Shown here: positions 17,039 to 37,223 of the stretch, one piece after another
Position numbering within the stretch: position 1 is the first letter of the stretch
How the letters are laid out: every line of letters begins with the position of its first letter
Assembly (NCBI GenBank): GCA_963666345.1
Contig: OY762721.1
Coordinates: 768,001 to 832,000 of the forward strand
From: Desulfatiglandales bacterium
GTDB taxonomy: Bacteria; Desulfobacterota; DSM-4660; Desulfatiglandales; Desulfatiglandaceae
Reading direction: 5' to 3'
DNA length: 64,000 nucleotides
Position numbers and translations under genes: made by a program
Notes under the pieces: generated by a model
Told to the model about the DNA's origin: nothing
What the model saw: the letters and a program-made list of their open reading frames with translations, nothing else
Databases searched by the model: none

Positions 17039-17054
17039 ATGAAACCGGTTTCAT
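17039..17054. promoter_or_regulatory. LacI-family operator (perfect palindrome)
   Basis: ATGAAACCGGTTTCAT with central CG, just downstream of TTGACA (17012-17017) and upstream of the LacI gene. Confidence 0.8.
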
Positions 17055-17120
17055 TAAGTTATCGGACTGTTCATATTTTGCCTTTAATCAAACACCTTAA
17101 CGACTAGAGAGGTGTTAGCC

Positions 17121-18137
17121 GTGGCAATCACCATAACAGAGCTAAGCAAGATCACCGGAGTAAGTCGTTCGACCATCTCCAGGGTCTTGAACAGGCCCCA
17201 CCTGGTAAAACAAGAAACACGCGATCGTGTCCTCAAGGCATTAAAGGACAACAATTACGTCTACAATGCCCTGGCAGGGGGATTGACAAAGAGAAAGACA
17301 GCAACGATCGCAGTCATCCTTCCAACAATTACCAATCCGGTCTTCGCGCTTTCCACAAAAGGTATTCAGGACAAGGCACAAAAACGGGGTTATTCGATAC
17401 TGCTGGGAAGCACGAATTACTCAGGAAAATCGGAATTCAAGCTCTTGACGTTATTTCATGAGAAAAGAATTGATGGAATAGTGTTCACAGGAACCCCCTT
17501 GAGCAAAGAATCGATAGAAATGACCTCACGCTTTGAAATTCCATATGTCATCACCTGGGAAAAATCTGATGAACAGGGTGTTTCCTATGTGGCATTTGAT
17601 AACAAAAAATGCGGTTTCAACGTCACCGAATACCTGATTTCTCTGGGACACAGGCATATAGGCATGATCGCGGGAAAATTCAGTGAGACATCCAGGGCCA
17701 GCAAACGCTGGTTGGGGTATAAAGAGGCCCTCAGCATGAATAGCATCAATTATGACGAAAGTATCGTCATTCAAAAGGGTTACTCAGTGACAAACGGCAA
17801 GGAAGCCGCCGGAAGGCTGCTTCGTGCGCCCGAACGACCCACAGCCATTGTTTGCGCAAACGACATCCTAGCCATAGGTGCCATGGCGGCGGCCAAAGAA
17901 ATGGGCTTAAAGGTCGGGGTAGACGTTTCGATAACCGGATTTGACGATCTTGAGGTTTCCGAAGCTCTTAATCCGTCCCTTACCACTTTTAAAATTCCTG
18001 CATACCGTATGGGGAAAATAGCCGCCCAGGTACTTATTGAAACTATTGAAGGGGAAATCAATGAGCCCCAGCAATACTTGCTGGAACCCAGTCTGGTCAT
18101 TAGAGATTCAACCGGGCAAGCCAAAGAAGTCGAATAG
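17121..18137 (+). CDS. LacI-family transcriptional regulator (HpsR-like)
   Basis: HTH TITELSKITGVSRSTISRVLN, plus ND.LAIG and SITGFDD. GTG start after GAGGTG. Confidence 0.92.
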   Translation: MAITITELSKITGVSRSTISRVLNRPHLVKQETRDRVLKALKDNNYVYNALAGGLTKRKTATIAVILPTITNPVFALSTKGIQDKAQKRGYSILLGSTNYSGKSEFKLLTLFHEKRIDGIVFTGTPLSKESIEMTSRFEIPYVITWEKSDEQGVSYVAFDNKKCGFNVTEYLISLGHRHIGMIAGKFSETSRASKRWLGYKEALSMNSINYDESIVIQKGYSVTNGKEAAGRLLRAPERPTAIVCANDILAIGAMAAAKEMGLKVGVDVSITGFDDLEVSEALNPSLTTFKIPAYRMGKIAAQVLIETIEGEINEPQQYLLEPSLVIRDSTGQAKEVE

Positions 18138-18271
18138 CTTTAAGCAGTAAGGTGTAGCAGAAGACCCAAAAGAGCAGTCAAGGAAACGCAACGTCAAAAA
18201 ATCAAAACCTATGGCATGAATGGAAAAAGCAGGAACAAATAGCTTTTAACCCTAACCAAAAGAGGAACGAC

Positions 18272-18535
18272 ATGGAAGAAAATAGCAGAAGCCAAAAACA
18301 TGAAAAGGCGGTTCGAATGGCGTCCATCATCTGTATCTTTCTTTTTTCACTGTACTTTGTGAATGTCTTTGTTGGAAAGGCGGCGACAGTTTATGGATGG
18401 AAGATTTTCCAGCTTGGTAATGTAGGGGAATTTCTGCTTTTGGTGGCTGCATCGATTTTTCTAGTTGTTGTCGCTCTTTATCGCGAGGCAATGGCAAATG
18501 ACAAAAATCAACGTAACAGCAACGAGGAGGTGTAA
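18272..18535 (+). CDS. Small two-TM membrane protein upstream of the TRAP genes
   Basis: GAGGA RBS, two hydrophobic helices, stop 2 nt before the dctP start. Confidence 0.75.
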   Translation: MEENSRSQKHEKAVRMASIICIFLFSLYFVNVFVGKAATVYGWKIFQLGNVGEFLLLVAASIFLVVVALYREAMANDKNQRNSNEEV

Positions 18536-18537
18536 TC

Positions 18538-19695
18538 ATGCCTGATGACAAAAAAGAAGCTAGGGAACTGAAATCGGAAGAAAGACGCCGTTTCATGGAG
18601 CTGACAGCCAAGTTCGGATTCACGGCTGCAGTCCTTGCAATGACAACGGGAGTTCTGGGATCGCGTGAGGCATCTGCGGCGATAGGGAAGGAAGAGAAAG
18701 AGAGGCAGAAAGCCGCTAAGCACACGATGAATATCGCCACGGCCTACATTATCGGTGCATCGCGAAGCTACCCTATCATGCAGTTGGACATGAAAGAGAA
18801 CGTCCAGAACATGACCAGGGGCGATGTTTATGTAAAATTGGCCCCAGGCGGCCAGCTCGGTGCCGGCAGCACCCTGGCCCAAAAGGTTCAGGCAGGGACC
18901 ATTCAGGCCGCACAGCATTCCATTTCCAATTTCGCACCCTTCGCTCCGGCCGTTGATCTTATCAACATCCCTTACTGGTGTGGTGAGAATCAGAAATTCA
19001 TGAATCTGGTTACTTCTGAAACATGGAAAAAAGAAATAGAAGCAAAAGTGGCGGCCAGGGGGTTCAAAGTTCTCATGTATGTATGCATAGACCCACGCAC
19101 CGTGGCCATCCGAAAAGGCATTAAAGGCCCCATTAAAACCCCTGACCAGATGAAAGGCATCAAGTTCCGCGTTCCCGGCTCCAAGCTTCTTCAGCTGTTC
19201 TATAAGCTTGTCGGCGCCAACCCCACTCCGGTCGCATGGGGTGAAACAGCCTCCGCAATCAAGCAGGGTGTTGCAGACGCCCTCGATCCATCGGTGGAAG
19301 CTCTCTATGTCTTTGGTTTCAAGGACATCCTTTCCTATGTCACCTTTAACGCTGCGGTGCCTGACTCACAGGTTTATTCCTGCAACCTGAAGTGGCTTGA
19401 GAGCCTGCCCACAAAAGTGCGCGAGGGAGTCGAATTTGCAGGCGAAGTGACAATGAGGCAGAACCTGGCCAAAGTGCCTGCGGCCCGGGCTTTTGCCATG
19501 GCAGAGCTTGCCAAGTCCGGAGTCGAATTTTATGTCCCCACTGCGGAAGAAAAAAAGCAATGGGTTGAAAAGGCCGGGGCACAACTCCCCGCCTGGGACG
19601 ACATCAAAAAGGAACTGGCAGGATCGCTCAGCCTCTTTGATAGACTGCTGGAAGCGGCCAATACGCCCGGTAATTTCTATGTCCACGACGTGTGA
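18538..19695 (+). CDS. hpsK: TRAP substrate-binding protein, HpsK-like (DHPS uptake), with Tat signal
   Basis: Twin-arginine ERRRFMEL. Segments ATAYIIGASRSYPIMQLD, KFRVPGSK, GANPTPVAWGET and QNLAKVPAARA match my recollection of roseobacter HpsK (not searched). Confidence 0.8.
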   Translation: MPDDKKEARELKSEERRRFMELTAKFGFTAAVLAMTTGVLGSREASAAIGKEEKERQKAAKHTMNIATAYIIGASRSYPIMQLDMKENVQNMTRGDVYVKLAPGGQLGAGSTLAQKVQAGTIQAAQHSISNFAPFAPAVDLINIPYWCGENQKFMNLVTSETWKKEIEAKVAARGFKVLMYVCIDPRTVAIRKGIKGPIKTPDQMKGIKFRVPGSKLLQLFYKLVGANPTPVAWGETASAIKQGVADALDPSVEALYVFGFKDILSYVTFNAAVPDSQVYSCNLKWLESLPTKVREGVEFAGEVTMRQNLAKVPAARAFAMAELAKSGVEFYVPTAEEKKQWVEKAGAQLPAWDDIKKELAGSLSLFDRLLEAANTPGNFYVHDV

Positions 19696-19704
19696 TTAAA
19701 ATGA

Positions 19705-19745
19705 TGCGTCCAGCGGCGTATGATCCTTTATTGCTGCTGGACGCA
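19705..19745 (+). other. Intercistronic stem-loop after the binding-protein gene
   Basis: TGCGTCCAGCGGCG...TTGCTGCTGGACGCA with no U-tract; likely stabilises the mRNA. Confidence 0.6.
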
Positions 19746-19769
19746 AAACACAAACGGGGAGAATGTTAC

Positions 19770-20291
19770 ATGAACATGTCACAGGTTTTGAGGACAATCG
19801 ACAAGGAGGGTGAAAGGTATTTACTCCTGCCCCTCTATGCCTTGATCGTCATAGTAATTTTTAGCGAGGTGATGCGCAGATTTGTCCTGAGCTATTCTTC
19901 CATATGGGCGGAAGAAGTGGCCCGATATGCCTTCATATACGTATCGTGGATCGGCGCCTCGGCAGCCATACGGGAACGGGCGCACATCAGGATTGATGTG
20001 ATATTTCAATTTGTCTCCGAGCGGGGCAAGGGAATTATCTTTATTTTCGGAGATATTGTCACCCTTGCCCTAGCGGTGACGGCATTTTACTGGTCCCTCC
20101 ACCCGGTTTTCACCTCACTCCATTTTGATTCGGTTACGCACGGCTTGAGAATCAGCCAGGCATGGTTTCTCGCTGCTGTACCCTTGGGGTTCGCGATGAT
20201 GACGATCCGCCTTATCCAATCCATCATAAGGGACGTATCCGATGTGAGGGCGAAAAGACCCGTATTCAAGGGCCAAAAGCTATTTGATTAG
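19770..20291 (+). CDS. hpsL: TRAP small permease (DctQ), HpsL-like
   Basis: W.EE.ARY, HIRID, four TM helices. Start ATG 19770 after GGGGAG. Confidence 0.85.
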   Translation: MNMSQVLRTIDKEGERYLLLPLYALIVIVIFSEVMRRFVLSYSSIWAEEVARYAFIYVSWIGASAAIRERAHIRIDVIFQFVSERGKGIIFIFGDIVTLALAVTAFYWSLHPVFTSLHFDSVTHGLRISQAWFLAAVPLGFAMMTIRLIQSIIRDVSDVRAKRPVFKGQKLFD

Positions 20292-20302
20292 GAGGTGACA
20301 CA

Positions 20303-21616
20303 GTGCTGCAACAATATTTGATGCATCAACAGGATCTCACCCTCGGATGGGACTTTTATTTACCTTTGATTGCGATGGTTGTTCTTATTGCACTGGCCGC
20401 CAGGATCTGGGTGGTGGTTGGTGTAGGCTCGCTGGCAATGCTCCTGGCAACCGGCGTATTGCCCCCCACACTGATGGGCGAAGCCCTGTTCGACGGAATA
20501 GACTCCTTTGCGCTGATCGCGGTTCCCCTCTTCATCCTAACCGGAGACGTGCTGGTTCGAACGGGCCTGTCGAACAAGCTCCTTGATGTGGCGGAGGCGA
20601 CCATGGGCGCCCAGCGTTCAGGGTTGGGTACTTCTACGGTCTTGGGGTGCGGATTTTTTGCATGCATTTCCGGCTCCGACGCGGCGGATGCCGCAGCGAT
20701 CGGACGGATTACAATCCATCGCCTTGAGGAAAAAGGGTACCCCAAACCTTATGCCTGCGCCCTTGTTGCGGCAGGTGCATGCACAGGGATTCTTATTCCA
20801 CCTTCAATTTCCTACATCATAATCGGGCTGGTTTTAGGAATTTCAGCTTCCACCCTGTTTATGGCCGCAGCTATCCCTGGAGTATTAATTCTTTTGTCCA
20901 TCATGGTAACCAACGCAATAGTCAACCGCTTCAAAAGGTACGAAGATTCCAGTAGAGGCTTCAATTTCAAGTACTGGCTCAAGACCATATATGACGGCAA
21001 ATACGCACTGACTATTCCGATTATCATACTTGGGGGCATATACTCAGGCGTCTTCACTCCCACTGAGTCCGCTGCGGTAGCCGCAGCCATAACCATGATC
21101 ATCGGTTTTATCCAGAAAACCATCGGGCTGAAAGATATTCCCAAGATGCTGGAAACCTCAGCCAAGGTGAGCGGGGTGATTGTTCCCATCATTGCTATGT
21201 CCCTTCCCCTTGCACAGACCCTGGCCTCCCTGCAGGTGCCCCAGTATTTCGTGCATACCATGACTTCCCTCACGGAGAACCCCTACCTGATCATGCTGAT
21301 CATGCTGGGAGTTTTGATTATCGCCGGATGTATCATGGAGACCACGCCGAATATCGTGATCCTTGCACCTATTCTTTTGCCCCTGGCCCAGGAAATAGGC
21401 ATGGACGAGATTCATTTCTGTATCTTCTTTGTAACTGCATTGGGAATAGGGTTTATCACACCGCCGATGGGACTCAACCTGTTCGTGGTTTCGGGTGTTA
21501 CCCGTACGCCGGTTCTGTCCATCTCCCGTTATGCGGTGTACTTTGTAATCACCATGTTGATAGTGGAAATTATCATCATGACCGTGCCGTGGATTTCGCT
21601 GTGGCTGATACGCTGA
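20303..21616 (+). CDS. hpsM: TRAP large permease (DctM), HpsM-like
   Basis: LIAVPLFIL, ISGS, GILIPPS, FTPTE, GFITPPMGLNLFV. Confidence 0.9.
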   Translation: MLQQYLMHQQDLTLGWDFYLPLIAMVVLIALAARIWVVVGVGSLAMLLATGVLPPTLMGEALFDGIDSFALIAVPLFILTGDVLVRTGLSNKLLDVAEATMGAQRSGLGTSTVLGCGFFACISGSDAADAAAIGRITIHRLEEKGYPKPYACALVAAGACTGILIPPSISYIIIGLVLGISASTLFMAAAIPGVLILLSIMVTNAIVNRFKRYEDSSRGFNFKYWLKTIYDGKYALTIPIIILGGIYSGVFTPTESAAVAAAITMIIGFIQKTIGLKDIPKMLETSAKVSGVIVPIIAMSLPLAQTLASLQVPQYFVHTMTSLTENPYLIMLIMLGVLIIAGCIMETTPNIVILAPILLPLAQEIGMDEIHFCIFFVTALGIGFITPPMGLNLFVVSGVTRTPVLSISRYAVYFVITMLIVEIIIMTVPWISLWLIR

Positions 21617-21666: not shown

Positions 21667-23547
21667 ATGCCATACGGATATAACGGACGCATACTGCATG
21701 TAAACTTAAGCAAAGGCAAATGGGAGATAGAGGAGCCTGATGAGACCTTTTACAGGGCCTATGTAGGGGGATCAAATTTTGCGGGCTATTATCTGTTAAA
21801 GCATATTAAACCGGGCATAGATCCTCTGTCAGATGAAAATGTCCTTGTCTTTGCATGCAGTGCGGTCACAGGGGCCCCCCTTTCAGGATTCAGCAGGTAC
21901 ACGGTAGCGGCCAAGTCACCGCTGACAGGGGGCTTTGGTGAATCAGAGGCTGGAGGCTACTTCGGCCCTGAGCTCAAATTTGCAGGCTTTGACGCCATCG
22001 TTATAACCGGTAAGGCTCAAGGCCCGGTATACCTATGGATAAAAGACGGGGAGGTGGAGATACGGGACGCATCTCGTCTGTGGGGAAAGGACAACTGGGT
22101 TACCCTTGAGAAGATCTGCGAGGAAAATGAAGACAAGAGGATAAGGGTTGCCTCCATAGGTCCGGCAGGTGAGAGAATGATCCCGTTTGCCAATGTCCAG
22201 AACGACCTGGAGCATTTTAACGGCCGCACCGGCATGGGGGCCGTCATGGGCTCCAAGAACCTCAAGGCAGTAGCTGTGAGGGGAAAGAAGAAGATGGAGA
22301 TGGCGGATCCTGACAAGGTAAAGGAGTTTGCCAAATGGCATGTCAGCTTCCTTAAAAAGCATCCGCCCGCAGTGGGTCTGAGCAAATTCGGAACGACCGG
22401 ACTGGTAAAGCCTCTTAATGATTCAGGCATACTTCCCACCAGGAATTTCAAGGAAGGTGTATTTGAGGGGGCGGACAAGATCGATGCCGATGCCTACCAG
22501 AAGGAGATTTTCCATTCTTCGGGCACCTGCTACGCCTGTGCCGTGAGGTGCAAGAGAAGGGTTGAATCGGACAGCGAGAAATACCCGCTTGACAAACGTT
22601 TCGGCGGCCCTGAATACGAGACCCTTGCATCGCTTGGCTCCCTTATCGGAAACGACAACCTGCTGGCGATAGCGCGCGGAAACCAGATCTGCAACCTTAT
22701 GGGCATGGATACGATCTCGGCGGGATGTGCCATAGCCTTTGCAATGGAGTGCTTTGAAAACGGAGTGCTTACGGAAGAAGACACCGGAGGCAGGGCCATA
22801 CCCTTTGGAGACGGGGATGCAATGATCTGGTTGCTTGAGGAGATCGTTAATCAGAGGGGGATAGGCAAGGTTCTTTCTAAGGGGGTAAAGAGGGCGGCAG
22901 AGGAGATCGGCAGGGGAGCCGAGAAGTATGCCCTTCACATAAAGGGTCAGGAGATGGCCTGTCATGACGGAAGGGGTAAGACCGGTATGGCCATGGGATT
23001 TGCGCTTTCCCCTACGGGCGCGGATCATGTGGAAACGCCCCATGACTCAGCCTTTGCAGCAAGCCCGGGGAACCTGATGCCGCTGGGGATGCTTGAACCG
23101 ATCGACCCCTTTGCCGTTGATGAGTCCAAGGTAAGGTTCTTTGTGCTCGGACAGAAGGCATGGGGACTCAATAACTGCTACGGGTTGTGTAATTTTGCCT
23201 CTGTTCCGCTTCATGGGAATACATTTCCAAAGCTTGTAGAGGCTATAACCGCAATAACGGGATGGGATACCAGCCTCCTTGAGATATTCAAGGTGGCTGA
23301 AAGATCAAATGTAATGGCCAGGATCTTTAATAACAGGGAAGGCTTCGGCCCTGAGGACGACAGGCTGGTGAACCGCTGGCACGAACAGATGCCTGCTGGT
23401 CCGATCAAGGGGCAGTATATCGATAAACAGGATTTTAGAAAGGCCATTGATCTGTACTATGAGATGTCGGGCTGGGATGAGGATGGAAGGCCTAAAAGGT
23501 CAAAACTGATCGAGCTCAACCTGGAATGGCTCATGGAAGATAATTGA
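21667..23547 (+). CDS. Aldehyde:ferredoxin oxidoreductase (W/Mo bis-pterin AOR family)
   Basis: KSPLTGG, GRTGMGAVMGSKNLKA, CYAC..RC, PEYET, DTIS, GADH. Confidence 0.93.
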   Translation: MPYGYNGRILHVNLSKGKWEIEEPDETFYRAYVGGSNFAGYYLLKHIKPGIDPLSDENVLVFACSAVTGAPLSGFSRYTVAAKSPLTGGFGESEAGGYFGPELKFAGFDAIVITGKAQGPVYLWIKDGEVEIRDASRLWGKDNWVTLEKICEENEDKRIRVASIGPAGERMIPFANVQNDLEHFNGRTGMGAVMGSKNLKAVAVRGKKKMEMADPDKVKEFAKWHVSFLKKHPPAVGLSKFGTTGLVKPLNDSGILPTRNFKEGVFEGADKIDADAYQKEIFHSSGTCYACAVRCKRRVESDSEKYPLDKRFGGPEYETLASLGSLIGNDNLLAIARGNQICNLMGMDTISAGCAIAFAMECFENGVLTEEDTGGRAIPFGDGDAMIWLLEEIVNQRGIGKVLSKGVKRAAEEIGRGAEKYALHIKGQEMACHDGRGKTGMAMGFALSPTGADHVETPHDSAFAASPGNLMPLGMLEPIDPFAVDESKVRFFVLGQKAWGLNNCYGLCNFASVPLHGNTFPKLVEAITAITGWDTSLLEIFKVAERSNVMARIFNNREGFGPEDDRLVNRWHEQMPAGPIKGQYIDKQDFRKAIDLYYEMSGWDEDGRPKRSKLIELNLEWLMEDN

Positions 23548-32133: not shown

Positions 32134-32157
32134 GCAGGGGGGCCTTGGTCCCCCTGC
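32134..32157 (+). other. Intercistronic hairpin after tctC
   Basis: GCAGGGGGGCC-TT-GGTCCCCCTGC. Confidence 0.6.
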
Positions 32158-32179
32158 CTATAATCTAGGTGTAAAAATC

Positions 32180-33730
32180 ATGTTTGATGCGGCTCTTACC
32201 GGTTTACTCAATGTCTTTGAGTTTTGGAATTTTCTCTGCCTCTTCGGTGGGGTAGTAATGGGGATCGTTTTCGGGGCCCTTCCGGGCCTCACCGCTACCA
32301 TGGGCCTGGCCCTGCTTATCCCTTTTACCTTTACCATGACCCCTGCCGCCGGCCTGATAATGCTGGCGGGCATCTATGTGGGTGCCATGTACGGAGATTC
32401 AATCCCGGCAATTCTTATCAACACACCGGGCACTCCCGCGGCTATTGCCACCACTTTTGACGGATTTCCTCTTGCCCAGAAGGGTATGGCCCAGCACGGT
32501 CTTGTGGCAGCGGCCATCGCCTCCGCGTTCGGATCCCTTGTGGCAAATATCGTTCTTGCCACCGCCGCCCCACCCCTTGCCGAGGCATCCCTCAAGTTCG
32601 GTCCGCCCGAGTATTTCTGGCTGGGCATATTCGGACTGACTATTATCGCAACCCTTTCATCCGGTTTTATCTTTAAAGGTCTTCTGGGCGGCACCTTCGG
32701 ACTTATACTCAGCACGGTCGGCATGTCACCCCTTGGAGGGGATGTAAGACTCACCTTCGGCTATCCCGAACTTCAGGCCGGCATAGAACTCATTGTCGCT
32801 CTCATAGGGTTTTTCTGTCTTCCTGAAATCCTGAGCAGTATTATCGGTCAGAGAAGGCAGTCATATTCTTCCCAGAAGGTCGTGCCGACACTTAGCGTTA
32901 TATGGGAAGTAACCACATCTTTGCTCAAAAAACCGGTTCTCATGTTTCGGTCCTCTATAATTGGAACGATTATAGGATTTGCTCCCGGTGCCGGGGGAAA
33001 TATTGCCAGCATGGTTTCCTATAACGAGGCATGCCGTTGGGATAAAAATCCGGAAGAATTCGGAAAAGGCACTATCAAGGGAGTAGCCGCATCCGAGGCC
33101 GCTAACAGCGCGATGGCGCCGGGCTCTCTTATACCTCTGCTTACCTTGGGGATACCCGGCTCTCCTCCTTCGGCGGTCATATTGGGGGCACTCATGCTCC
33201 ACGGCATGAGACCCGGAGTAGAGCTTTTCAGCGTACATGTTGTGACAACCTACTCCTTTATTATGGGTTTGCTCGTTGCTGCTTTTCTGGTAACGATTAT
33301 CGGCAGCTTCGGCTCCTTTGTATATGCGAGGATAATCAATATCCCCGCCAGATTTCTCGCACCGGCAGTGGTGTTCATGACTATTCTCGGGTCCTATGCC
33401 ATCAGGAACAACATCCTTGACGTATGGATCATGTTTTTGTTCGGAGTCATAGGCTACGCCAGCAATAAGCTTAAGTTTCATCCCGCACCGATCGTACTGG
33501 GGCTTATCTTAGGTCCATTCGTCGAAGAGGGACTTGTCCAGTCCATGCTTGCGGGGAAGGCCTCGGGCAGCGTTATCGGTTATATGACCTTAAGGCCTAT
33601 ATCTGCTGTCCTGATCGGGTTGTGCGTCATGTCGGCCGGCTGGCCGTTGTTTGCCTCATGGCGGACCAAAAGACGGGAAAAGGCTAAAGCCTGTGCCTGT
33701 GATGTGGAGGATACTAATGTTAAACGCTGA
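32180..33730 (+). CDS. tctA: TTT large permease
   Basis: GALPGL, AILINTPGTP, FGPPEYF, PLLTLGIPG. Confidence 0.92.
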   Translation: MFDAALTGLLNVFEFWNFLCLFGGVVMGIVFGALPGLTATMGLALLIPFTFTMTPAAGLIMLAGIYVGAMYGDSIPAILINTPGTPAAIATTFDGFPLAQKGMAQHGLVAAAIASAFGSLVANIVLATAAPPLAEASLKFGPPEYFWLGIFGLTIIATLSSGFIFKGLLGGTFGLILSTVGMSPLGGDVRLTFGYPELQAGIELIVALIGFFCLPEILSSIIGQRRQSYSSQKVVPTLSVIWEVTTSLLKKPVLMFRSSIIGTIIGFAPGAGGNIASMVSYNEACRWDKNPEEFGKGTIKGVAASEAANSAMAPGSLIPLLTLGIPGSPPSAVILGALMLHGMRPGVELFSVHVVTTYSFIMGLLVAAFLVTIIGSFGSFVYARIINIPARFLAPAVVFMTILGSYAIRNNILDVWIMFLFGVIGYASNKLKFHPAPIVLGLILGPFVEEGLVQSMLAGKASGSVIGYMTLRPISAVLIGLCVMSAGWPLFASWRTKRREKAKACACDVEDTNVKR

Positions 33731-34163
33731 TCTTATTGTTGGAATATCTTCTTTTGTTTTAGGGGGAATCCTCTACTTTTCGTCACGGGGCCTGAGCAAA
33801 CTGGGGGGAATTTTCGTTAACTATGTGCTCGTGGCAATTTTTCTGCTGGCTGCGGTGATGTTTGTTAAAGGGCTGATAAAGCCGGAAAAGCTTGCCTTTT
33901 TCGAATCGGTTATTGAACGGAACAACATCCTGATCGGAATAATCATCCTGTTTCTTTACCTTATTATCATGCCTTGGATAGGTTTTCTGATATCGAGTTA
34001 TATCTTTTATTTCGCCTTCAACACATATCTTGCGGAAAACCGCTGGAGCAACAGAAATATCCTCCAGTCCATGGCATTGAGCGCGATTGTGGTCACCTTC
34101 TTTTATATCATTTTCCACCACGTGCTGCAGGTCCCACTTCCTGTCGGATCATTTTTTGAATAG
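33717..34163 (+). CDS. tctB: TTT small permease
   Basis: Four to five TM helices, C-terminal L.VPLP.G. Start ATG 33717 after GGAGG. Confidence 0.85.
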   Translation: MLNADLIVGISSFVLGGILYFSSRGLSKLGGIFVNYVLVAIFLLAAVMFVKGLIKPEKLAFFESVIERNNILIGIIILFLYLIIMPWIGFLISSYIFYFAFNTYLAENRWSNRNILQSMALSAIVVTFFYIIFHHVLQVPLPVGSFFE

Positions 34164-34204: not shown

Positions 34205-35752
34205 TCAAAAAGAGGAGGCCCTGTAATCACTTGGGTTCAGATTGAATTTTCTCAATCGGTATTGAAGGGTTGAACGAGGAAGACCCAGGATCCTGGCCGC
34301 ACCGTTTTTTCCGCCTACGGCCCCGCTGCATTTTATAAGAACCCCTTCAATATGCCTGCGCTCTATCTCAGCCAGGGTGAGGTCACCAGCGGCTACAGGC
34401 GTATCAGGGAAAGGGCCCAGCAGGGCGGAGATATCATTTGCATCTATATGATCCCCGGGTCTCAATATTACCATCCTCTTTATCAGGTTCTTCAGTTCCC
34501 TAACGTTTCCCGGCCACTGATACCGGCACAGCATATCGATGGCACCTTCCGAATATGAAGGAGGAAGCCTGTTGATTAATTTCGCCTGGAGGCCGGTCAG
34601 TTTTCTCATCAGAATCGGCACGTCTTCTACCCTCTCCCTGAGAGGGGGAACATGCACATTCACGATATTGAGCCGGTAGAAGAGATCCTTTCTGAATTTT
34701 CCCTCCTTTATCATGAGATCAAGGTCCCTGTTGGTGGCTGCAACCACCCTGAAATCAACCTTGATCGGCCTGCTGTCACCCACCCTTTCAAAGCGGCGCT
34801 CCTGAAGTACATTAAGCATCTTTGCCTGGAGGCTGAGCGGCAGTTCCGAGACCTCATCCAGAAAAACAGTCCCTTTGTCAGCCATCTCAAAGCGGCCGAT
34901 ACGCTTGTCGTCGGCGCCGGTGAAGGCACCTTTTGCATGTCCGAAGAGTTCACTTTCAAAAAGGGATGCAGAAAGCGCGGGGCAGTTTATTTTGACAAAA
35001 AGGTTATCCCTTCTGGAACTGTATCGGTGTATGTAACGAGCCAGATAGTCTTTTCCCGTTCCCGTCTCCCCGCTTATAAGCACGGATGCGTCCGTATCGG
35101 CCACCTGATTCATCAGTTCCATTATATCCTGCATCTGCCTCGAGGAAAAATAAAAGGAATCCTCCTTATAGCCCTCATCGGCATCGGCAATGAGGAAATC
35201 TCTCTGTCTCATCAGATTTGCGTTTATTTTCTTTAGGTGGGTATAGGCAAGCATATTGTCGACCGCAATTGAAACCTGGTTGGTCACATCGGTCAGGACT
35301 TCGGTCAGTTCTTTCAGATAACAGGGAGGTCTTGTAAAGGAAAAATGGATGGTTCCCAGGATTCGATTACGCATGACAAGGGGAAATGCCATGGTCGACC
35401 TGAGACCCGCCTCAAGCATCGACTCTATCGACGGCAGATCGATATAGGATGTGAGATCCTCGATTATGACCGGTTTCATCGACCCGATAACCATGCGCGT
35501 AATAGGACCCTTTGACAGGGGCCTGCTGCCTTTGCATGAAATCCCCTCAGGGTCAATCCCATGGGCCGTTGCAAAATAGCTGATCGATTCGGTTTCGGAA
35601 TCATAAAGATTTATACTGAGCCTGTCATAAGGAAAATTCTTTCTAAGCTCCTTTGCAAGGGCCCTGAAAAGTTCTTCTCTTGTTGTGCGAGTCATTACCG
35701 CATTGTCTATACTCAGCAGAATCTGGTATCGCGCTTCAGTGCTCCAGCGCAT
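34205..35752 (-). CDS. Sigma-54 enhancer-binding activator (GAF + AAA+ + HTH, FhlA-like)
   Basis: GETGTGK, ESELFGH.KGAFTGA, FLDE, WPGNVREL, C-terminal HTH AARILGLPRSTL. Confidence 0.95.
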   Translation of the reverse strand: MRWSTEARYQILLSIDNAVMTRTTREELFRALAKELRKNFPYDRLSINLYDSETESISYFATAHGIDPEGISCKGSRPLSKGPITRMVIGSMKPVIIEDLTSYIDLPSIESMLEAGLRSTMAFPLVMRNRILGTIHFSFTRPPCYLKELTEVLTDVTNQVSIAVDNMLAYTHLKKINANLMRQRDFLIADADEGYKEDSFYFSSRQMQDIMELMNQVADTDASVLISGETGTGKDYLARYIHRYSSRRDNLFVKINCPALSASLFESELFGHAKGAFTGADDKRIGRFEMADKGTVFLDEVSELPLSLQAKMLNVLQERRFERVGDSRPIKVDFRVVAATNRDLDLMIKEGKFRKDLFYRLNIVNVHVPPLRERVEDVPILMRKLTGLQAKLINRLPPSYSEGAIDMLCRYQWPGNVRELKNLIKRMVILRPGDHIDANDISALLGPFPDTPVAAGDLTLAEIERRHIEGVLIKCSGAVGGKNGAARILGLPRSTLQYRLRKFNLNPSDYRASSF

Positions 35753-35893
35753 TGTATCCTCCTTTTACCTTTCGACCCTTCTTCCGTTCTGAAATCAAAA
35801 GGCAATCATTTGTATTTTGGACAGCTGCCAAAAGGAAAGACAATCCTCCTCAAAGAAAATTTCATATAATATTTAATTTTGCTTTAAAATCAA

Positions 35894-35907
35894 GCCCAAT
35901 AATGGGC
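35894..35907. promoter_or_regulatory. Single activator box upstream of the activator gene
   Basis: GCCCAATAATGGGC, the same motif as at suyA and larA. Confidence 0.7.
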
Positions 35908-36185
35908 ATCCGCAAAAACCACTTGCTCGCGTGGTAAAACCACGCGGCTTAATCTCATGGCTGATCCACCCCTTGGTTGAGGCAAAAAAACCATTGCTTT
36001 GACTTCCGCACACACCCCAAGATGCTGGATGCAAGGCGCCTGGGAGCCACAACCCAGGCGCATAACCTATTCGTCGCACAACTACTCAGGCGGGACAGGT
36101 ATTCGCATATATTGACTGAAAAGCGATGGGGCACTATACTATTTATTTAAGCCTCATGGAAAATTTGATCTTAAAGGGACTCCAA

Positions 36186-36404
36186 GTGGAAATTGATGTC
36201 AAGGTATTCATTAATTTGCGTGAAAATCGCAATTCCAAGGCCATCGTTGAGGAAGATTCAATGGCCGTTGAACTGCTGGAGTCCTTAGGTATCCCTATTT
36301 CCGATGTCGGTATCCTGCTTATAAATGATAAGCAGGCCCTCCTCGATCAAAGGCTTCAAAACGGGGACAAGGTAATTGTCATCCCGCCGACAGGGGGCGG
36401 GTAG
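36186..36404 (+). CDS. MoaD/ThiS-family sulfur carrier
   Basis: About 72 aa beta-grasp ending IPPTGGG. Probable GTG start at 36186. Confidence 0.85.
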   Translation: MEIDVKVFINLRENRNSKAIVEEDSMAVELLESLGIPISDVGILLINDKQALLDQRLQNGDKVIVIPPTGGG

Positions 36405-36449
36405 TCATACCTTCAGATCATTTGATGACGAGCCTCTTGGGGTGAATTC

Positions 36450-37223
36450 ATGAGTCTATCCATAAGATATAAAAGGCAGGCAGCCTTTCCAGGTCTGGGG
36501 GAAAATGGACAGGCGCTTCTTGGAGCGGCAAAAGTCGCTATTGTGGGTTGCGGGGGCCTCGGGTCCACCTTGGCAAGCTGCATGGCAAGGGCCGGGGTTG
36601 GAAACCTTACGATTATCGACCGTGACAGCCCGGATATCTCAAACCTGCACCGTCAATTCCTGTTCGATACATCTGATGTGGAAAAGGGTGCCAACAAGGC
36701 CCTGGCCGCAACTGAAAAGCTGCGCAGAGTGAACCCTGAAATAAAAATCTGTGGTTTACCGGAAAGACTTTCAAAAAAGAATTGCGACAAGCTCCTTGCC
36801 GGAAATGATCTTGTCCTGGATGGAACCGATAATTTTGAAACAAGGTATATCATAAACGACTGGTGCCTCAAAAACAAAGTACCCTGGATCTACGGCGGAG
36901 TTGACTCATCCATAGGGATGACCATGGTTATCAAAGCCGTCAAGGGTCCCTGCTTCAGATGCCTCTTTCCGTCACGCGTTGCTGAGGATCGGCCTTCTGA
37001 CGATCCTCAAAGAGGCATTATCAATACCGTTCCCGTTGTTATAGCCTCTTTTCAGGCAACTGAGGCATTCAAGCTTCTTACACAAAGCAATGATGTAATA
37101 GAAAACTTAAGGATAATAGATCTATGGTCCGGTGAATTCAGGACCGTTCAGATTGAAAGAAATCCTGTCTGTCCTTGCTGTTCATCTGAGCCTTCAAACA
37201 TGAACACCCTGCCGGACAAATAG
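36450..37223 (+). CDS. MoeB/ThiF-family adenylyltransferase
   Basis: RY.RQ, GCGGLG, SNLHRQ, DGTDNF, PCFRC, CPCC. Confidence 0.92.
   Translation: MSLSIRYKRQAAFPGLGENGQALLGAAKVAIVGCGGLGSTLASCMARAGVGNLTIIDRDSPDISNLHRQFLFDTSDVEKGANKALAATEKLRRVNPEIKICGLPERLSKKNCDKLLAGNDLVLDGTDNFETRYIINDWCLKNKVPWIYGGVDSSIGMTMVIKAVKGPCFRCLFPSRVAEDRPSDDPQRGIINTVPVVIASFQATEAFKLLTQSNDVIENLRIIDLWSGEFRTVQIERNPVCPCCSSEPSNMNTLPDK

What the first reader, a model, noticed from the sequence alone, without database searches (positions are those of the whole stretch)
17039..37223. Candidate new anaerobic DHPS/sulfolactate desulfonation system (HpsKLM, DhpA-like, AOR, LarA racemase, SuyAB)
Seen: one 20 kb block encodes an HpsK-like TRAP, an AOR, a YihU-like dehydrogenase, SuyAB, LarA with a TTT transporter, a sigma-54 activator and MoaD/MoeB. 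Established: HpsKLM import DHPS; SuyAB cleaves (R)-sulfolactate to pyruvate and sulfite; described routes use HpsN/O/P or DhpA plus the NAD-linked aldehyde dehydrogenase SlaB, with SlcC/ComC for enantiomer interconversion. None of hpsNOP, slaB or slcC/comC is in this window. Inference: DHPS goes to sulfolactaldehyde (NAD), then to sulfolactate (AOR, ferredoxin), is racemised by LarA, and is cleaved to pyruvate plus sulfite for respiration. Two known steps would be replaced by metalloenzymes.
Basis: partly seen in the sequence, partly recalled or inferred. Interest (0 to 1): 0.9.

Follow-up and report, generated by a model that had tools for sequence, protein, structure and literature searches.

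The report
Anaerobic DHPS and sulfolactate desulfonation island
A sulfite-respiring bacterium carries genes to import two common organosulfur compounds (DHPS and sulfolactate) and split off sulfite, and it appears to use a tungsten-type aldehyde oxidoreductase and a nickel-cofactor racemase for two steps that known pathways do with ordinary dehydrogenases.

Summary
All genes named are present at 17.1-37.2 kb. Three were not mentioned: a LacI regulator, a GntR regulator and a sulfatase-like gene.

- **Transporter:** the TRAP binding protein is a close homologue of crystallised Ruegeria HpsK. All eight DHPS-contacting residues are conserved.
- **SuyAB:** SuyB is 65.5% identical to the SuyB of the annotated Cupriavidus hpsNOP-suyAB cluster.
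- **LarA:** it scores above cut-off for LarAH5/Mar1, a "malate racemase" whose discoverers doubted that malate is its native substrate. LarAH5-type genes lie near suyAB in 10 of 80 related loci.
- **Mutual exclusion:** within those loci LarA never occurs with ComC, nor AOR+dehydrogenase with HpsN.
- **Regulation:** suyAB and larA-tctCAB share a sigma-54 promoter and an upstream palindrome. The palindrome recurs in 13 of 16 related promoters.
- **Whole genome:** it has dsrAB and larBCE, no ComC and no SlaB-type enzyme. It does hold an HpsN-like paralogue elsewhere.

Best reading: DHPS is oxidised to sulfolactaldehyde, then to sulfolactate (AOR), racemised (LarA) and cleaved by SuyAB to pyruvate and respired sulfite. 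The enzymology is untested.

The AOR idea was floated for Desulfovibrio DF1 in 2018, where the recombinant enzyme was inactive. I found no paper on a LarA-type sulfolactate racemase. This scan has noted the idea before on other DNA. Verdict: new variant of a known pathway.

The parts
17112..18137 (+). LacI-family regulator, probably the repressor of the hpsKLM-aor-dehydrogenase operon
   Evidence: LacI HTH plus periplasmic-binding-protein domains. LacI genes flank the orthologous TRAP in L006 (53%), the Vibrionaceae loci (30-33%) and C. pinatubonensis (32%).
18538..19695 (+). HpsK: periplasmic DHPS-binding protein of a TRAP transporter, with an RRxF (Tat-type) signal
   Evidence: DctP family. 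517 bits, E 2e-154, to R. pomeroyi HpsK, PDB 24GC-GF. Residues matching Tyr75, Ser125, Asn128, Arg184, Arg207, Trp230, Asp272 and Gln274 are all conserved. Sequence.
19692..21616 (+). HpsL (DctQ, 19692-20291) and HpsM (DctM, 20303-21616), the TRAP membrane subunits
   Evidence: Pfam DctQ and DctM. 60-81% orthologues sit beside suyAB in L002, L021, L023, L030 and the Vibrionaceae loci.
21667..23547 (+). Single-subunit AOR-family tungsten/pterin oxidoreductase; proposed sulfolactaldehyde:ferredoxin oxidoreductase
   Evidence: AFOR_N plus AFOR_C. 412 bits to P. furiosus AOR 1AOR over the full length. 64-70% orthologues are adjacent to the dehydrogenase beside suyAB in 7 of 80 loci. A DHPS-induced AOR lies next to DhpA in Desulfovibrio DF1.
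23601..24461 (+). DhpA-like NAD-dependent beta-hydroxyacid dehydrogenase; proposed DHPS to sulfolactaldehyde
   Evidence: NAD_binding_2/11 domains, below every NCBIfam equivalog cut-off. 405 bits to PDB 9k2j, only 92 bits to YihU 6sm7. 67-76% orthologues are always paired with the AOR.
24574..24708 (+). suyAB control region: two palindromes (24574-24587, 24605-24618) and a sigma-54 -24/-12 element (24694-24708, TGGCATGAATGTTGC)
   Evidence: The same palindrome-promoter spacing is seen in 13 of 16 related promoters.
24964..25242 (+). SuyA, the small (SAF-domain) subunit of (2R)-sulfolactate sulfo-lyase
   Evidence: SAF domain. Overlaps suyB by 7 bases. 42-82% orthologues lie directly upstream of suyB in 78 of 80 loci.
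25236..26408 (+). SuyB, the large subunit of (2R)-sulfolactate sulfo-lyase
   Evidence: GD_AH_second plus GD_AH_C. 81-95% relatives, many named (2R)-sulfolactate sulfo-lyase subunit beta by JGI. 65.5% to SuyB of the annotated C. pinatubonensis hps cluster. Identity distribution is bimodal.
26613..27323 (-). GntR/FCD regulator; lies inside the block, probably not part of the pathway
   Evidence: No close orthologue at this position in the related loci; best hits 24-43% elsewhere.
27753..29294 (+). Sulfatase-family (alkaline-phosphatase superfamily) protein; role unknown, probably an insertion between suyB and larA
   Evidence: PF00884. Found in 0 of 80 and 0 of 19 related loci. The sequence reads TVPHR where I recall C/SxPxR in sulfatases, and there is no signal peptide.
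29407..29538 (+). larA control region: two palindromes (29407-29420, 29437-29450) and a perfect sigma-54 element (29524-29538, TGGCACGTAAATTGC)
29583..30872 (+). LarA homologue of the LarAH5/Mar1 group; proposed nickel-pincer-dependent sulfolactate racemase (longest ORF starts at TTG 29565)
   Evidence: NF052595, 542 bits against cut-off 462. The equivalents of LarA1 D72, R75, H108, H174, K184 and H200 are invariant in 20 aligned relatives. Synteny. larB, larC and larE are in the genome.
31151..34163 (+). TctC (31151-32104), TctA (32180-33730) and TctB (33651-34163): TTT transporter, proposed sulfolactate importer (SlcHFG-like)
   Evidence: Pfam. 58-62/80-81/54-61% orthologues lie next to comC-suyAB in L025 and next to larA-suyAB in L127. 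SlcHFG is a putative sulfolactate importer in T. muris.
34205..35752 (-). GAF-AAA+-HTH_8 sigma-54 enhancer-binding protein, the presumed sulfolactate-module activator
   Evidence: 48-62% orthologues lie next to suyAB or larA in 26 of 80 loci.
35894..35907 (.). Single copy of the palindrome, upstream of the activator gene
36126..37223 (+). ThiS/MoaD-like sulfur carrier (36126-36404, C-terminal GGG) and ThiF/MoeB-like adenylyltransferase (36450-37223); possibly pterin-cofactor supply for the AOR
   Evidence: A ThiS-like gene directly follows the AOR in L009 and L010.

Best explanation
The block is a two-module island for dissimilating C3-sulfonates in a DsrAB-bearing anaerobe.

Module 1 (LacI regulator, hpsKLM, aor, dhpA-like)
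- HpsKLM imports DHPS, probably both enantiomers.
- The NAD-dependent dehydrogenase oxidises DHPS to sulfolactaldehyde.
- The AOR oxidises sulfolactaldehyde to sulfolactate and reduces ferredoxin.

Module 2 (suyAB; larA-tctCAB; sigma-54 activator)
- The TTT transporter imports free sulfolactate.
- The LarAH5-type nickel-pincer enzyme interconverts (S)- and (R)-sulfolactate.
- SuyAB cleaves (R)-sulfolactate to pyruvate and sulfite.
- DsrAB then respires the sulfite.
- suyAB and larA-tctCAB are driven from two sigma-54 promoters. Both carry the same pair of upstream palindromes, presumably bound by the GAF-domain activator encoded next to them.

Shown by sequence and comparison:
- the identities of HpsK and SuyAB;
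- membership of LarA in the LarAH5 family, with an intact active site;
- presence of the cofactor genes larBCE;
- the shared promoter architecture;
- recurrence and mutual exclusivity of the gene sets.

Inferred:
- the substrates of the dehydrogenase, the AOR, LarA and the TTT transporter;
- the effector of each regulator;
- the role of MoaD/MoeB.

My odds: the island is a DHPS/sulfolactate desulfonation system, about 0.9. LarA is the sulfolactate racemase, about 0.7. The AOR is the sulfolactaldehyde oxidoreductase, about 0.55.
For: **HpsK**
- 517 bits to R. pomeroyi HpsK, which binds R- and S-DHPS at 5-9 nM.
- All 8 ligand-contacting residues are conserved.

**SuyAB**
-.

**LarA**
- NF052595 at 542 bits, above the 462 cut-off. 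Catalytic and cofactor residues are invariant.
- LarAH5/Mar1 has a KM of 55 mM for malate and kcat/KM of 0.39 s-1 mM-1, against 185 for Mar2. Its authors suggest that malate is not the native substrate.
- Their Table S1 lists COG2721 (19 genes for 15 LarAH), TctC, TctA and a GAF-AAA-Fis regulator as the group-5 context. That is exactly the context seen here.

**Synteny**
- LarA (48-60%) is directly upstream of suyA in 9 of 80 SuyB loci and 5 kb upstream in one more.
- L127 reads larA-suyAB-tctCAB plus the activator.
- In a sample of 400 genomes of the phylum, 9 have a LarA at 46% identity or more. Seven of these lie within 12 kb of a SuyB orthologue. One of the other two is cut by a contig end.

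**Mutual exclusivity within 10 kb of suyB**
- 10 loci have LarA, 17 have a ComC-like gene, 0 have both.
- 7 have AOR+dehydrogenase, 13 have HpsN, 0 have both.
- L002 and L006 keep HpsO/HpsP orthologues (46-53%) but have AOR+dehydrogenase where HpsN stands elsewhere.

**Regulation**
- The palindrome gives 11 strand matches against 2.1 expected, reached in 0 of 100 shuffles.
- The sites lie within about 120 bp upstream of both sigma-54 elements.
- The same arrangement occurs in 13 of 16 related promoters.

**Genome**
- dsrA scores 574 bits. LarC, LarB and LarE are above cut-off.
- There are no Ldh_2 hits. The only full-length aldehyde dehydrogenase best fits methylmalonate-semialdehyde dehydrogenase.
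- No HpsP orthologue was found; the best match is 28%.

**Published precedent and field data**
- In Desulfovibrio DF1 a DHPS-induced AOR is encoded next to DhpA.
- Contigs from four marine-sediment RNA libraries of one study lie at 95-99% identity on hpsK, aor, the dehydrogenase, suyAB and tctC. This is only a weak hint of expression, because such libraries can hold DNA.
Against: - No enzyme here has been assayed.
- The only published test of such an AOR found no activity with sulfolactaldehyde, lactaldehyde or acetaldehyde (DF1 enzyme made in E. coli).
- AOR+dehydrogenase accompanies suyAB in only 7 of 80 loci, and in 0 of the 19 loci fetched from the phylum sample.
- AORs at 62% identity or less sit in unrelated contexts in 10 of the 12 fetched. 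One is flanked by LacI and the dehydrogenase, and one by LacI alone.
- The genome has an HpsN-like paralogue: 48% to annotated C. pinatubonensis HpsN, 36% to its own HisD. It lies in a LacI-TTT-sulfatase-SDR cluster at 3.66 Mb and could oxidise DHPS without the AOR.
- At whole-genome level LarA and ComC are not exclusive. G079, G237 and G148 have both, and 3 of the 17 SuyB genomes have neither ComC nor a LarA gene beside suyAB.
- G375 has the LarA-TctCA module with no SuyB orthologue found, in a 480-contig assembly.
- LarAH5 does racemise malate in vitro.
- In the window suyB and larA are separated by two unrelated genes.
- The count of sigma-54-like motifs in the window is not above chance: 4 found, 3.99 expected.
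- Related genomes are not independent samples.
Confidence: 0.6

Rival explanations
1. LarA is what its NCBIfam name says: a malate (or tartrate-like dicarboxylic 2-hydroxyacid) racemase serving whatever the TTT transporter imports. Its place near suyAB reflects a shared regulator or chance. SuyAB then receives only (R)-sulfolactate.
For: - LarAH5/Mar1 racemises malate in vitro and was negative on the other substrates tested.
- The NCBIfam equivalog is named malate racemase.
- TTT systems typically carry carboxylates.
- G375 has LarA-TctCA with no SuyB orthologue found.
- 3 of the 17 SuyB genomes manage without ComC or a LarA gene beside suyAB.
Against: - KM is 55 mM for malate, and the authors themselves doubt it is the native substrate.
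- COG2721 is associated at 100% with group 5.
- LarA is directly upstream of suyA in 9 loci, probably in one sigma-54 operon.
- The same palindromes stand before suyA and larA in the window.
- LarA takes the position that ComC holds in L025, and the two never co-occur within 10 kb.
- No malic enzyme or malate dehydrogenase lies in the block.
Confidence: 0.15
2. The AOR is not a pathway enzyme. It is a general aldehyde scavenger, or acts on another aldehyde. Sulfolactaldehyde would be oxidised by the HpsN-like paralogue, by the single aldehyde dehydrogenase, or the dehydrogenase here would act on something other than DHPS.
For: - The recombinant DF1 AOR was inactive on sulfolactaldehyde.
- An HpsN-like paralogue and one aldehyde dehydrogenase exist elsewhere in the genome.
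- Most AOR relatives sit in unrelated contexts.
- Characterised AORs are broad-range aldehyde detoxifiers (passages in PMC13328260).
Against: - The AOR lies 50 bp after hpsM and 53 bp before the dehydrogenase, on the same strand.
- The AOR-dehydrogenase pair is conserved at 64-76% identity beside suyAB in 7 loci that all lack hpsN.
- In L002 and L006 the pair stands with HpsO/HpsP orthologues where HpsN stands elsewhere.
- The DF1 AOR was DHPS-induced. It was made in E. coli, and I recall that E. coli is a poor host for tungsten cofactor insertion.
- HpsN homologues in sulfate reducers can be cysteinolate dehydrogenases instead.
Confidence: 0.3
3. The UxaA-type pair is a sugar-acid dehydratase and the whole block catabolises a non-sulfonated hydroxy acid.
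For: - Pfam and NCBIfam see only the galactarate/altronate dehydratase family.
- RefSeq calls the relatives 'UxaA family hydrolase'.
- The genome holds three further UxaA-family genes, one beside a distant LarA-like gene.
Against: - 65.5% identity to SuyB in the annotated C. pinatubonensis hpsN-hpsO-hpsP cluster, and 67% in Paracoccus.
- Orthologues are sharply separated from the 30-36% paralogues.
- The DHPS-specific HpsK is in the same block.
Confidence: 0.03

Closest known systems
DHPS fermentation pathway of Desulfovibrio sp. DF1 (DhpA, SlaB, SuyAB, DsrAB; Burrichter et al. 2018, PMC6278857; passages read)
   Same: Anaerobic route DHPS to sulfolactaldehyde to sulfolactate to pyruvate plus sulfite, with the sulfite respired. 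It uses an HIBADH-family DHPS dehydrogenase encoded next to an AOR, and SuyAB.
   Different: - DF1 has the NAD-dependent SlaB, shown active. No SlaB-type gene is in this genome.
- DF1 uses an ABC importer. Here it is an RpHpsK-type TRAP.
- In DF1 suyAB is on another contig. No racemase was proposed.
- I could not compare sequences with DF1 proteins, as none was on hand.
Aerobic HpsKLM-HpsNOP-SuyAB(-ComC) pathway (C. pinatubonensis, R. pomeroyi; annotated cluster L124; Grimontia locus L063)
   Same: Orthologous HpsK (517 bits to the crystallised protein), HpsLM, a LacI regulator and SuyAB.
   Different: - HpsN (4-electron, NAD) is replaced in the cluster by dehydrogenase + AOR.
- The HpsO/HpsP DHPS inversion is absent (best 38% and 28%).
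- Inversion is proposed to occur at the sulfolactate level by LarA. The host is a DsrAB anaerobe.
- The 2026 HpsK study places RpHpsK-type proteins in Alpha-, Beta- and Gammaproteobacteria with HpsNOP.
SlcHFG-SlcC-ComC-SuyAB sulfolactate pathway (Chromohalobacter salexigens; Taurinivorans muris, PMC10507020, passages read)
   Same: TTT import of sulfolactate, conversion of (S)- to (R)-sulfolactate, SuyAB cleavage, and sulfite respiration in T. muris.
   Different: The two-dehydrogenase 'racemase' (via sulfopyruvate) is missing. The genome has no Ldh_2/ComC. A single cofactor-dependent LarA-family enzyme stands in its place.
LarAH5/Mar1 'malate racemase' of Desulfitobacterium hafniense (Desguin et al. 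2020, PMC7583248; passages, Table S1 and one row of Dataset S2 read)
   Same: Same NCBIfam family above cut-off. Same signature: HQF, YQAQK, GAHKAYL(F/W). Same genomic context: COG2721, TctC/A and a GAF regulator.
   Different: Only malate activity (KM 55 mM) has been measured, and sulfolactate was never tested or mentioned. I did not compute identity to Dhaf_4417 because its sequence is not a stored record.
Pyrococcus furiosus AOR (1AOR) and the sulfonate-binding PfASOR/WOR5 (PMC13328260, passages read)
   Same: Full-length single-subunit AOR fold family. A WOR acting on sulfonated substrates has precedent in PfASOR.
   Different: The window's AOR is far closer to classical AOR (412 bits) than to WOR5 (216 bits). 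No WorS partner gene is adjacent. The proposed substrate, sulfolactaldehyde, is new for the family.

Membership tests
SuyAB, (2R)-sulfolactate sulfo-lyase | Two subunits: a small SAF-domain protein plus a roughly 390 aa UxaA C-terminal-type protein, translationally coupled | tested here: met
   92 aa SAF subunit plus 390 aa GD_AH subunit with a 7-base overlap.
SuyAB, (2R)-sulfolactate sulfo-lyase | Orthology to SuyB of organisms where the enzyme or pathway was established | tested here: met
   65.5% to SuyB in the annotated C. pinatubonensis hpsN-hpsO-hpsP-suyAB cluster and 67% in Paracoccus versutus. Orthologues at 65-80% are separated from paralogues at 41% or less.
SuyAB, (2R)-sulfolactate sulfo-lyase | Fe(II)-dependent release of sulfite and pyruvate from (R)-sulfolactate | not testable with these tools
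   Needs an enzyme assay.
HpsK (DHPS-binding TRAP protein, RpHpsK type) | DHPS-contacting residues Tyr75, Ser125, Asn128, Arg184, Arg207, Trp230, Asp272, Gln274 | tested here: met
   All 8 are conserved in the printed alignment to 24GC. The residue list comes from PMC13335735.
HpsK (DHPS-binding TRAP protein, RpHpsK type) | Genomic link to DHPS catabolic genes | tested here: met
   66-78% orthologues lie next to suyAB in 14 of 80 loci, 12 of them with hpsN.
LarA superfamily, LarAH5 group | Score above the curated cut-off of NF052595 | tested here: met
   542 bits against 462.
LarA superfamily, LarAH5 group | Two catalytic His, the cofactor-binding Lys, the Ni-ligand His, and Asp/Arg (LarA1 H108, H174, K184, H200, D72, R75) | tested here: met
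   H116, H181, K191, H207, D77 and R80 are invariant in 20 sequences. Alignment to Mar2 6D6Z.
LarA superfamily, LarAH5 group | Cofactor biosynthesis genes larB, larC, larE in the genome | tested here: met
   LarC 459 bits, LarB 297 bits, LarE 294 bits. All are above cut-off and scattered in the genome.
LarA superfamily, LarAH5 group | Physiological malate racemase (the family's given name) | not testable with these tools
   The published KM of 55 mM and the context argue against it. Needs an assay with sulfolactate.
AOR / tungsten oxidoreductase family | AFOR_N plus AFOR_C domains over the full length | tested here: met
   258 and 416 bits. Residues 3-619 align to 2-601 of 1AOR.
AOR / tungsten oxidoreductase family | Tungsten-bispterin and [4Fe-4S] ligands; tungsten dependence | not tested
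   Ligand residues were not mapped. MoaD/MoeB-like genes are nearby.
DhpA (DHPS dehydrogenase of DF1) | HIBADH-family NAD enzyme encoded next to an AOR in a DHPS cluster | tested here: met
   DF1 arrangement from PMC6278857.
DhpA (DHPS dehydrogenase of DF1) | Sequence orthology to DF1 DhpA; DHPS oxidation with NAD+ | not testable with these tools
   The DF1 sequence is not on hand. The closest solved structure, 9k2j (405 bits), is deposited only as '3-hydroxyisobutyrate dehydrogenase'.
SlcC/ComC two-dehydrogenase sulfolactate racemase | A ComC (Ldh_2 family) gene in the genome | tested here: not met
   0 PF02615 matches in the 96.7%-complete single-contig genome. 0 tblastn hits with two ComC-like proteins.
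SlaB (NAD-dependent sulfolactaldehyde dehydrogenase, GabD type) | A succinate-semialdehyde-dehydrogenase-type Aldedh gene | tested here: not met
   There is only one full-length Aldedh gene. It best fits methylmalonate-semialdehyde dehydrogenase (396 bits) over SSADH (280 bits), both below cut-off, and lies at 3.91 Mb.
HpsN (DHPS 3-dehydrogenase) | A non-HisD member of the histidinol dehydrogenase family | tested here: inconclusive
   None in the window. A paralogue at 3.66 Mb is 47-48% identical to HpsN-type proteins and 36% to the genome's own HisD. Such proteins may also be cysteinolate dehydrogenases.
Sigma-54 enhancer-binding protein regulon | GAF sensor, AAA+ sigma-54 interaction domain, HTH_8; -24/-12 promoters with upstream binding sites | tested here: met
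   Domains. Promoters and palindromes.

The most novel reading that the evidence does not exclude
The LarAH5 clade, now named 'malate racemase', is in fact a family of nickel-pincer-dependent 3-sulfolactate racemases. That would settle the native substrate of Mar1, left open since 2020. The AOR clade paired with DhpA-like dehydrogenases is a sulfolactaldehyde:ferredoxin oxidoreductase. Together they would give anaerobes a DHPS/sulfolactate route in which four of the six electrons needed to reduce the released sulfite arrive at ferredoxin level. A conserved sulfolactate-sensing GAF activator would switch the route on through a GCCCAATATTGGGC enhancer.
Probability: 0.4. Interest if true: 0.75.

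Novelty: new variant of a known kind. Interest (0 to 1): 0.66.

Why it matters
DHPS and sulfolactate are among the most abundant organosulfur compounds. They come from sulfoquinovose and from algae. Their anaerobic breakdown feeds sulfide production in sediments and guts.

- **New enzyme function.** A one-enzyme, nickel-cofactor sulfolactate racemase would be a new function in the LarA superfamily. It would explain why 'Mar1' is such a poor malate racemase. It would also correct a curated family name that genome annotation now propagates.
- **Energy yield.** A ferredoxin-linked sulfolactaldehyde oxidation would change the energy budget of DHPS fermentation. It would make the pathway depend on tungsten and nickel supply.
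- **Annotation marker.** The conserved palindrome with its sigma-54 promoter marks sulfolactate regulons in Desulfobacterota genomes.

All three points can be tested directly with available substrates and published cofactor-loading methods.

Tried and rejected
**Literature searches**
- 'sulfolactate' + 'LarA' gave 8 papers. I opened two, where 'Lara' was an author name or part of a reference entry. The rest I saw only as a listing. None links the two.
- 'sulfolactate racemase' / 'nickel-pincer' / 'sulfolactate' matched 174 papers, 30 listed. No listed paper has the phrase, and none holds both of the other terms.
- 'sulfolactaldehyde' + 'ferredoxin oxidoreductase' + 'tungsten' matched 271 papers, 20 listed. 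Only a glycolysis review holds all three. I did not read it.
- The 2026 sulfoquinovose review has none of 'ferredoxin oxidoreductase', 'racemase', 'SlcC' or 'DhpA'.
- The D. vulgaris sigma-54 regulome paper has nothing on suyAB.
- No paper in the library holds '9K2J'.

**Searches that led nowhere**
- The metagenome scan with the single LarA protein returned only 4 loci. It is too few for a survey starting from LarA.
- A sigma-54 motif count alone is not above chance: 47 found against 51.9 expected at 2 mismatches, and 4 against 3.99 at 1 mismatch. Only position and the linked palindrome carry weight.
- The generic promoter/terminator scan gave counts near the shuffles. I used it only because it exposed the palindrome.
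- AOR relatives in the phylum sample form a continuum from 62 to 43% identity with no clear orthologue break. Of the 12 fetched, 10 sit in unrelated contexts. AOR orthology therefore cannot be set by identity alone.
- Whole-genome complementarity of LarA and ComC does not hold. Only the local complementarity, within 10 kb, does.

**RNA-library contigs**
- No contig lay on the GntR and sulfatase-like genes, and almost none on larA.

**Other**
- Earlier notes of this scan were looked up. Nothing was held for this genome under 'sulfonate'.
- I did not compare LarA with Dhaf_4417 directly. That sequence was seen only in a paper's supplement and is not a stored record.
- The supplementary sequence-network files of PMC13335735 were not opened. 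They may list Desulfobacterota HpsK contexts.

Full report
**What is there**

ORF listing and Pfam/NCBIfam scans give this order, all on the + strand unless marked.

| Coordinates | Gene |
|---|---|
| 17112-18137 | LacI regulator |
| 18538-21616 | DctP/DctQ/DctM TRAP transporter |
| 21667-23547 | AOR |
| 23601-24461 | HIBADH-family dehydrogenase |
| 24964-26408 | SAF-domain protein (92 aa) plus UxaA-type large subunit (390 aa), overlapping by 7 bases |
| 26613-27323 (-) | GntR/FCD regulator |
| 27753-29294 | sulfatase-family protein |
| 29565-30872 | LarA homologue (probable start ATG 29583) |
| 31151-34163 | TctC, TctA, TctB |
| 34205-35752 (-) | GAF-AAA+-HTH_8 sigma-54 activator |
| 36126-36404 | ThiS/MoaD-like protein ending in GGG |
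| 36450-37223 | ThiF/MoeB-like protein |

It omitted the LacI, GntR and sulfatase-like genes. None of the 50 window ORFs scanned carries a Histidinol_dh, Aldedh or Ldh_2 domain.

**The well-anchored parts**

*HpsK.*
- The TRAP binding protein scores 517 bits (E 2e-154) against PDB 24GC-24GF.
- These entries are Ruegeria pomeroyi HpsK, which binds R- and S-DHPS with KD 5-9 nM (PMC13335735, passages).
- That paper names the residues that contact DHPS: Tyr75, Ser125, Asn128, Arg184, Arg207, Trp230, Asp272 and Gln274. All eight are conserved in the printed alignment.
- Bilophila's S-selective HpsK is only a distant match at 54 bits.

*SuyB.*
- It has relatives at 81-95% identity, many named '(2R)-sulfolactate sulfo-lyase subunit beta' by JGI.
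- It is 65.5% identical to the protein at the SuyB position of the annotated Cupriavidus pinatubonensis cluster LacI-hpsN-hpsO-MFS-(hpsP)-suyA-suyB. It is 67% identical to Paracoccus versutus.
- In 400 sampled genomes of the same phylum, matches fall into two groups: 17 genomes at 65-80% and all others at 41% or less. The window's gene is a true orthologue and not one of the genome's three other UxaA-family paralogues at 31-36%.

*Host genome.*
- It is one contig of 4.16 Mb and encodes DsrA (574 bits) and DsrB.

**LarA**

- NCBIfam places it in NF052595, 'nickel-dependent malate racemase, LarAH5 family', at 542 bits against a cut-off of 462.
- The equivalents of LarA1 D72, R75, H108, H174, K184 and H200 are invariant in an alignment of 20 relatives taken from suyAB-linked loci.
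- larC, larB and larE are present elsewhere in the genome, each above its cut-off.
- The family's only characterised member is LarAH5/Mar1 of Desulfitobacterium hafniense. It has a KM of 55 mM for L-malate and kcat/KM of 0.39 s-1 mM-1, against 185 for Mar2. [quoted passage not shown]
- Their Table S1 gives the group-5 gene context as COG2721 'altronate dehydratase' (19 genes for 15 LarAH), TctC and TctA (26% each) and a GAF-AAA-Fis regulator (16%). This is the context of the window, and COG2721 here is SuyAB.
- Neither that paper nor the 2024 follow-up contains the string 'sulfo'.

**Comparative genomics**

I fetched 10 kb on each side of the 80 best SuyB relatives in one-genome-per-species contigs (589 relatives confirmed). 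I then searched them with the 17 window proteins.

| Gene(s) near suyB | Identity to window | Loci of 80 |
|---|---|---|
| LarA directly upstream of suyA | 48-60% | 9, plus 1 at 5 kb (L009) |
| AOR + dehydrogenase, adjacent | 64-70% / 67-76% | 7 |
| Close TRAP (DctP) | 66-78% | 14 |
| Activator | 48-62% | 26 |
| Sulfatase-like gene | - | 0 |

Pfam annotation of eight loci and a search with annotated HpsN/HpsO/HpsP and ComC-like proteins show the logic.
- Grimontia celer (L063) reads LacI-TRAP-HpsN-HpsO-HpsP-SuyAB-ComC.
- L002 and L006 read SuyAB-TRAP-AOR-dehydrogenase-HpsO-HpsP.
- L003, L010, L014 and L015 read activator / LarA-SuyAB-dehydrogenase-AOR. L003 and L014 also carry a TRAP.
- L009 has the same genes, with LarA 5 kb upstream of suyA.
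- L025 reads ComC-SuyAB-TctCAB, with TctA 81% identical to the window's.
- A metagenome contig (L127) reads LarA-SuyAB-TctCAB plus the activator.

Within these 10-kb neighbourhoods:
- 10 loci have LarA, 17 have a ComC-like gene and none has both. L010 has a more distant Ldh_2 gene 9 kb away.
- 7 have AOR+dehydrogenase, 13 have HpsN and none has both.

This is the pattern expected if LarA displaces ComC(/SlcC) and dehydrogenase+AOR displaces HpsN. Related genomes are not independent, so I give the counts without a test.

**The test starting from LarA**

- Among the same 400 genomes, 9 hold a LarA at 46% identity or more.
- Seven of them have it within 12 kb of a SuyB orthologue, three of these directly adjacent.
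- One (G199) has it 5 bases from a contig end.
- One (G375, 480 contigs) has LarA-TctCA and no SuyB orthologue found.
- Two further SuyB genomes have a divergent LarA-family gene (31%) directly upstream of suyA.
- At whole-genome level LarA and ComC are not exclusive. Of the 17 SuyB genomes, 9 have Ldh_2, and 3 of those also have LarAH5. Three have neither ComC nor a LarA gene beside suyAB.

**Regulation**

- A perfect sigma-54 element (TGGCACGTAAATTGC, 29524-29538) precedes larA. A one-mismatch element (24694-24708) precedes suyA. The motif count in the window is not above chance: 4 found, 3.99 expected.
- Within about 120 bp upstream of each element lies a pair of 14-bp palindromes, GCCYAWTATTGGGC, at 24574/24605 and 29407/29437. 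A fifth copy lies upstream of the activator gene, at 35894.
- In all there are 11 strand matches against 2.1 expected, reached in 0 of 100 shuffles.
- In the related loci, sigma-54 elements stand before larA in 7 of the 10 LarA loci, before suyA in 9 loci and before tctC in 3 loci.
- The same palindrome, mostly GCCCAATATTGGGC, lies 87-111 bp upstream in 13 of the 16 larA or suyA promoters examined.
- So suyAB and larA-tctCAB of the window belong to one conserved activator regulon, although two unrelated genes separate them. The hpsKLM-aor-dehydrogenase genes follow the LacI gene and show neither element.

**What the rest of the genome says**

- No Ldh_2/ComC.
- Only one full-length aldehyde dehydrogenase. 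It best fits methylmalonate-semialdehyde dehydrogenase and lies in an unrelated cluster at 3.91 Mb.
- No HpsP orthologue (28%), and only a 38% HpsO-like SDR.
- Against the idea of simple replacement: a second histidinol-dehydrogenase-family gene at 3.66 Mb is 47-48% identical to HpsN-type proteins and 36% to the genome's own HisD. It lies in a LacI-HpsN-like-TTT-sulfatase-SDR cluster. Such proteins can also be L-cysteinolate dehydrogenases in sulfate reducers (PMC12814064, passages).
- SuyB, LarAH5-type LarA and close AOR relatives (E 1e-150 or better) were not found in the 6 sampled genomes of the same family. An integrase and an IS21 transposase lie 4-8 kb upstream of the window. The island may therefore have been acquired.

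**Mechanism proposed**

1. HpsKLM imports DHPS.
2. The dehydrogenase makes sulfolactaldehyde, using NAD+.
3. The AOR makes sulfolactate, reducing ferredoxin.
4. TctCAB imports free sulfolactate.
5. LarA equilibrates (S)- and (R)-sulfolactate.
6. SuyAB gives pyruvate and sulfite.
7. DsrAB reduces the sulfite.

HpsK looks able to take both enantiomers, and sulfoglycolysis yields the S-forms. Because SuyAB is R-specific, an inversion step is needed, and neither known solution (HpsO/HpsP, SlcC/ComC) is encoded. By my own count, the six electrons from DHPS to acetate plus CO2 match the six needed for sulfite reduction. This agrees with the DHPS fermentation described for DF1.

**What is known already**

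- Burrichter et al. 2018 found a DHPS-induced AOR encoded next to DhpA in Desulfovibrio sp. DF1 and named it a second candidate for sulfolactaldehyde oxidation. Enzyme made in E. coli was inactive, and its role was left unclear.
- The sulfolactate pathway known in anaerobes uses SlcHFG-SlcC-ComC-SuyAB (T. muris).
- A 2025 paper still lists only HpsO/HpsP and SlcC/ComC as the stereo-inversion solutions for these compounds.
- My searches found no paper on a LarA-type sulfolactate racemase.
- Earlier notes of this scan proposed the same idea on other genomes. I treat these as leads, not evidence.

**Weak field data**

Contigs assembled from four marine-sediment RNA libraries of one study lie at 95-99% identity on hpsK, parts of dctQM and aor, the dehydrogenase, suyAB and tctCA. 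Such libraries can contain DNA, so this is only a hint of expression by a close relative.

**Verdict**

It is a new variant of the known DHPS/sulfolactate desulfonation pathways.
- The LarA step is, as far as I could search, undescribed. It is directly testable and would settle the open question of Mar1's native substrate.
- The AOR step was anticipated in print but is unproven.

Noticed in passing
window 26613-29294: A GntR/FCD regulator and a cytoplasmic sulfatase-family protein sit between suyB and larA. The protein reads TVPHR where I recall the C/SxPxR formylglycine motif, and it has no signal peptide. Neither gene occurs in any of the 80 + 19 related loci. The genome has five more sulfatase-like paralogues (one at 60% identity), at least three of them next to TTT transporter genes.
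   Followed up: partly
own genome C1:3903000-3918000 (L088): A second cluster with parallel architecture. It holds a fused TRAP permease, the genome's only full-length aldehyde dehydrogenase (methylmalonate-semialdehyde type), an HIBADH-family dehydrogenase, a hydroxyproline-dehydratase-like protein, a UxaA-type protein (36% to SuyB) and a distant LarA-family gene. It may be another dehydratase-plus-LarA pair for a different hydroxy acid.
   Followed up: partly
own genome C1:3652000-3671000 (L122): A cluster of LacI, HpsN-like dehydrogenase (48% to annotated HpsN), TTT transporter, sulfatase-like protein, SDR and a 3-hydroxyacyl-CoA-dehydrogenase-like protein. Its substrate is unknown; DHPS, cysteinolate or a sulfated diol are candidates.
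   Followed up: partly
window 37558-43570: A one-mismatch sigma-54 element (37558-37572), without the palindrome, precedes three redox genes. These are a membrane Fe-S protein with a nitrate-reductase-gamma-like part (37815-39569), a CCG-domain HdrB-like protein (39659-40537) and an HdrA-like flavoprotein (40955-43570). They may be a ferredoxin or quinone electron-transfer complex. A link to the island is untested.
   Followed up: no
window 1281-7449: An ADP-forming acetyl-CoA synthetase and a three-subunit 2-oxoacid:ferredoxin oxidoreductase lie about 10 kb upstream of the island. They would fit pyruvate to acetate plus ATP. Association with the island is untested.
   Followed up: no
own genome C1:759900-763530 (L090 9904-13530): An IS21-family transposase and an integrase-domain protein lie just upstream of the window, with another AOR-family gene and an HdrC/TfrB-like gene nearby. 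Together with the absence of SuyB, LarAH5-type LarA and close AOR relatives in 6 same-family genomes, this suggests horizontal acquisition.
   Followed up: partly
L102 8069-9343 and L103 7865-9142: Two genomes of one genus carry a much more divergent LarA-family gene (26-28% to the window's LarA in the alignment, HWF instead of HQF) directly upstream of suyA. It may be a second, independent recruitment of the LarA fold to suyAB.
   Followed up: partly
L009 5881-9616 and L003 19890-20750: Transketolase N-terminal-type genes, an NAD-epimerase-family gene and an extra HIBADH-family dehydrogenase lie inside or beside the larA-suyAB-aor clusters. This may link them to a sulfosugar (transketolase-type) pathway.
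   Followed up: no
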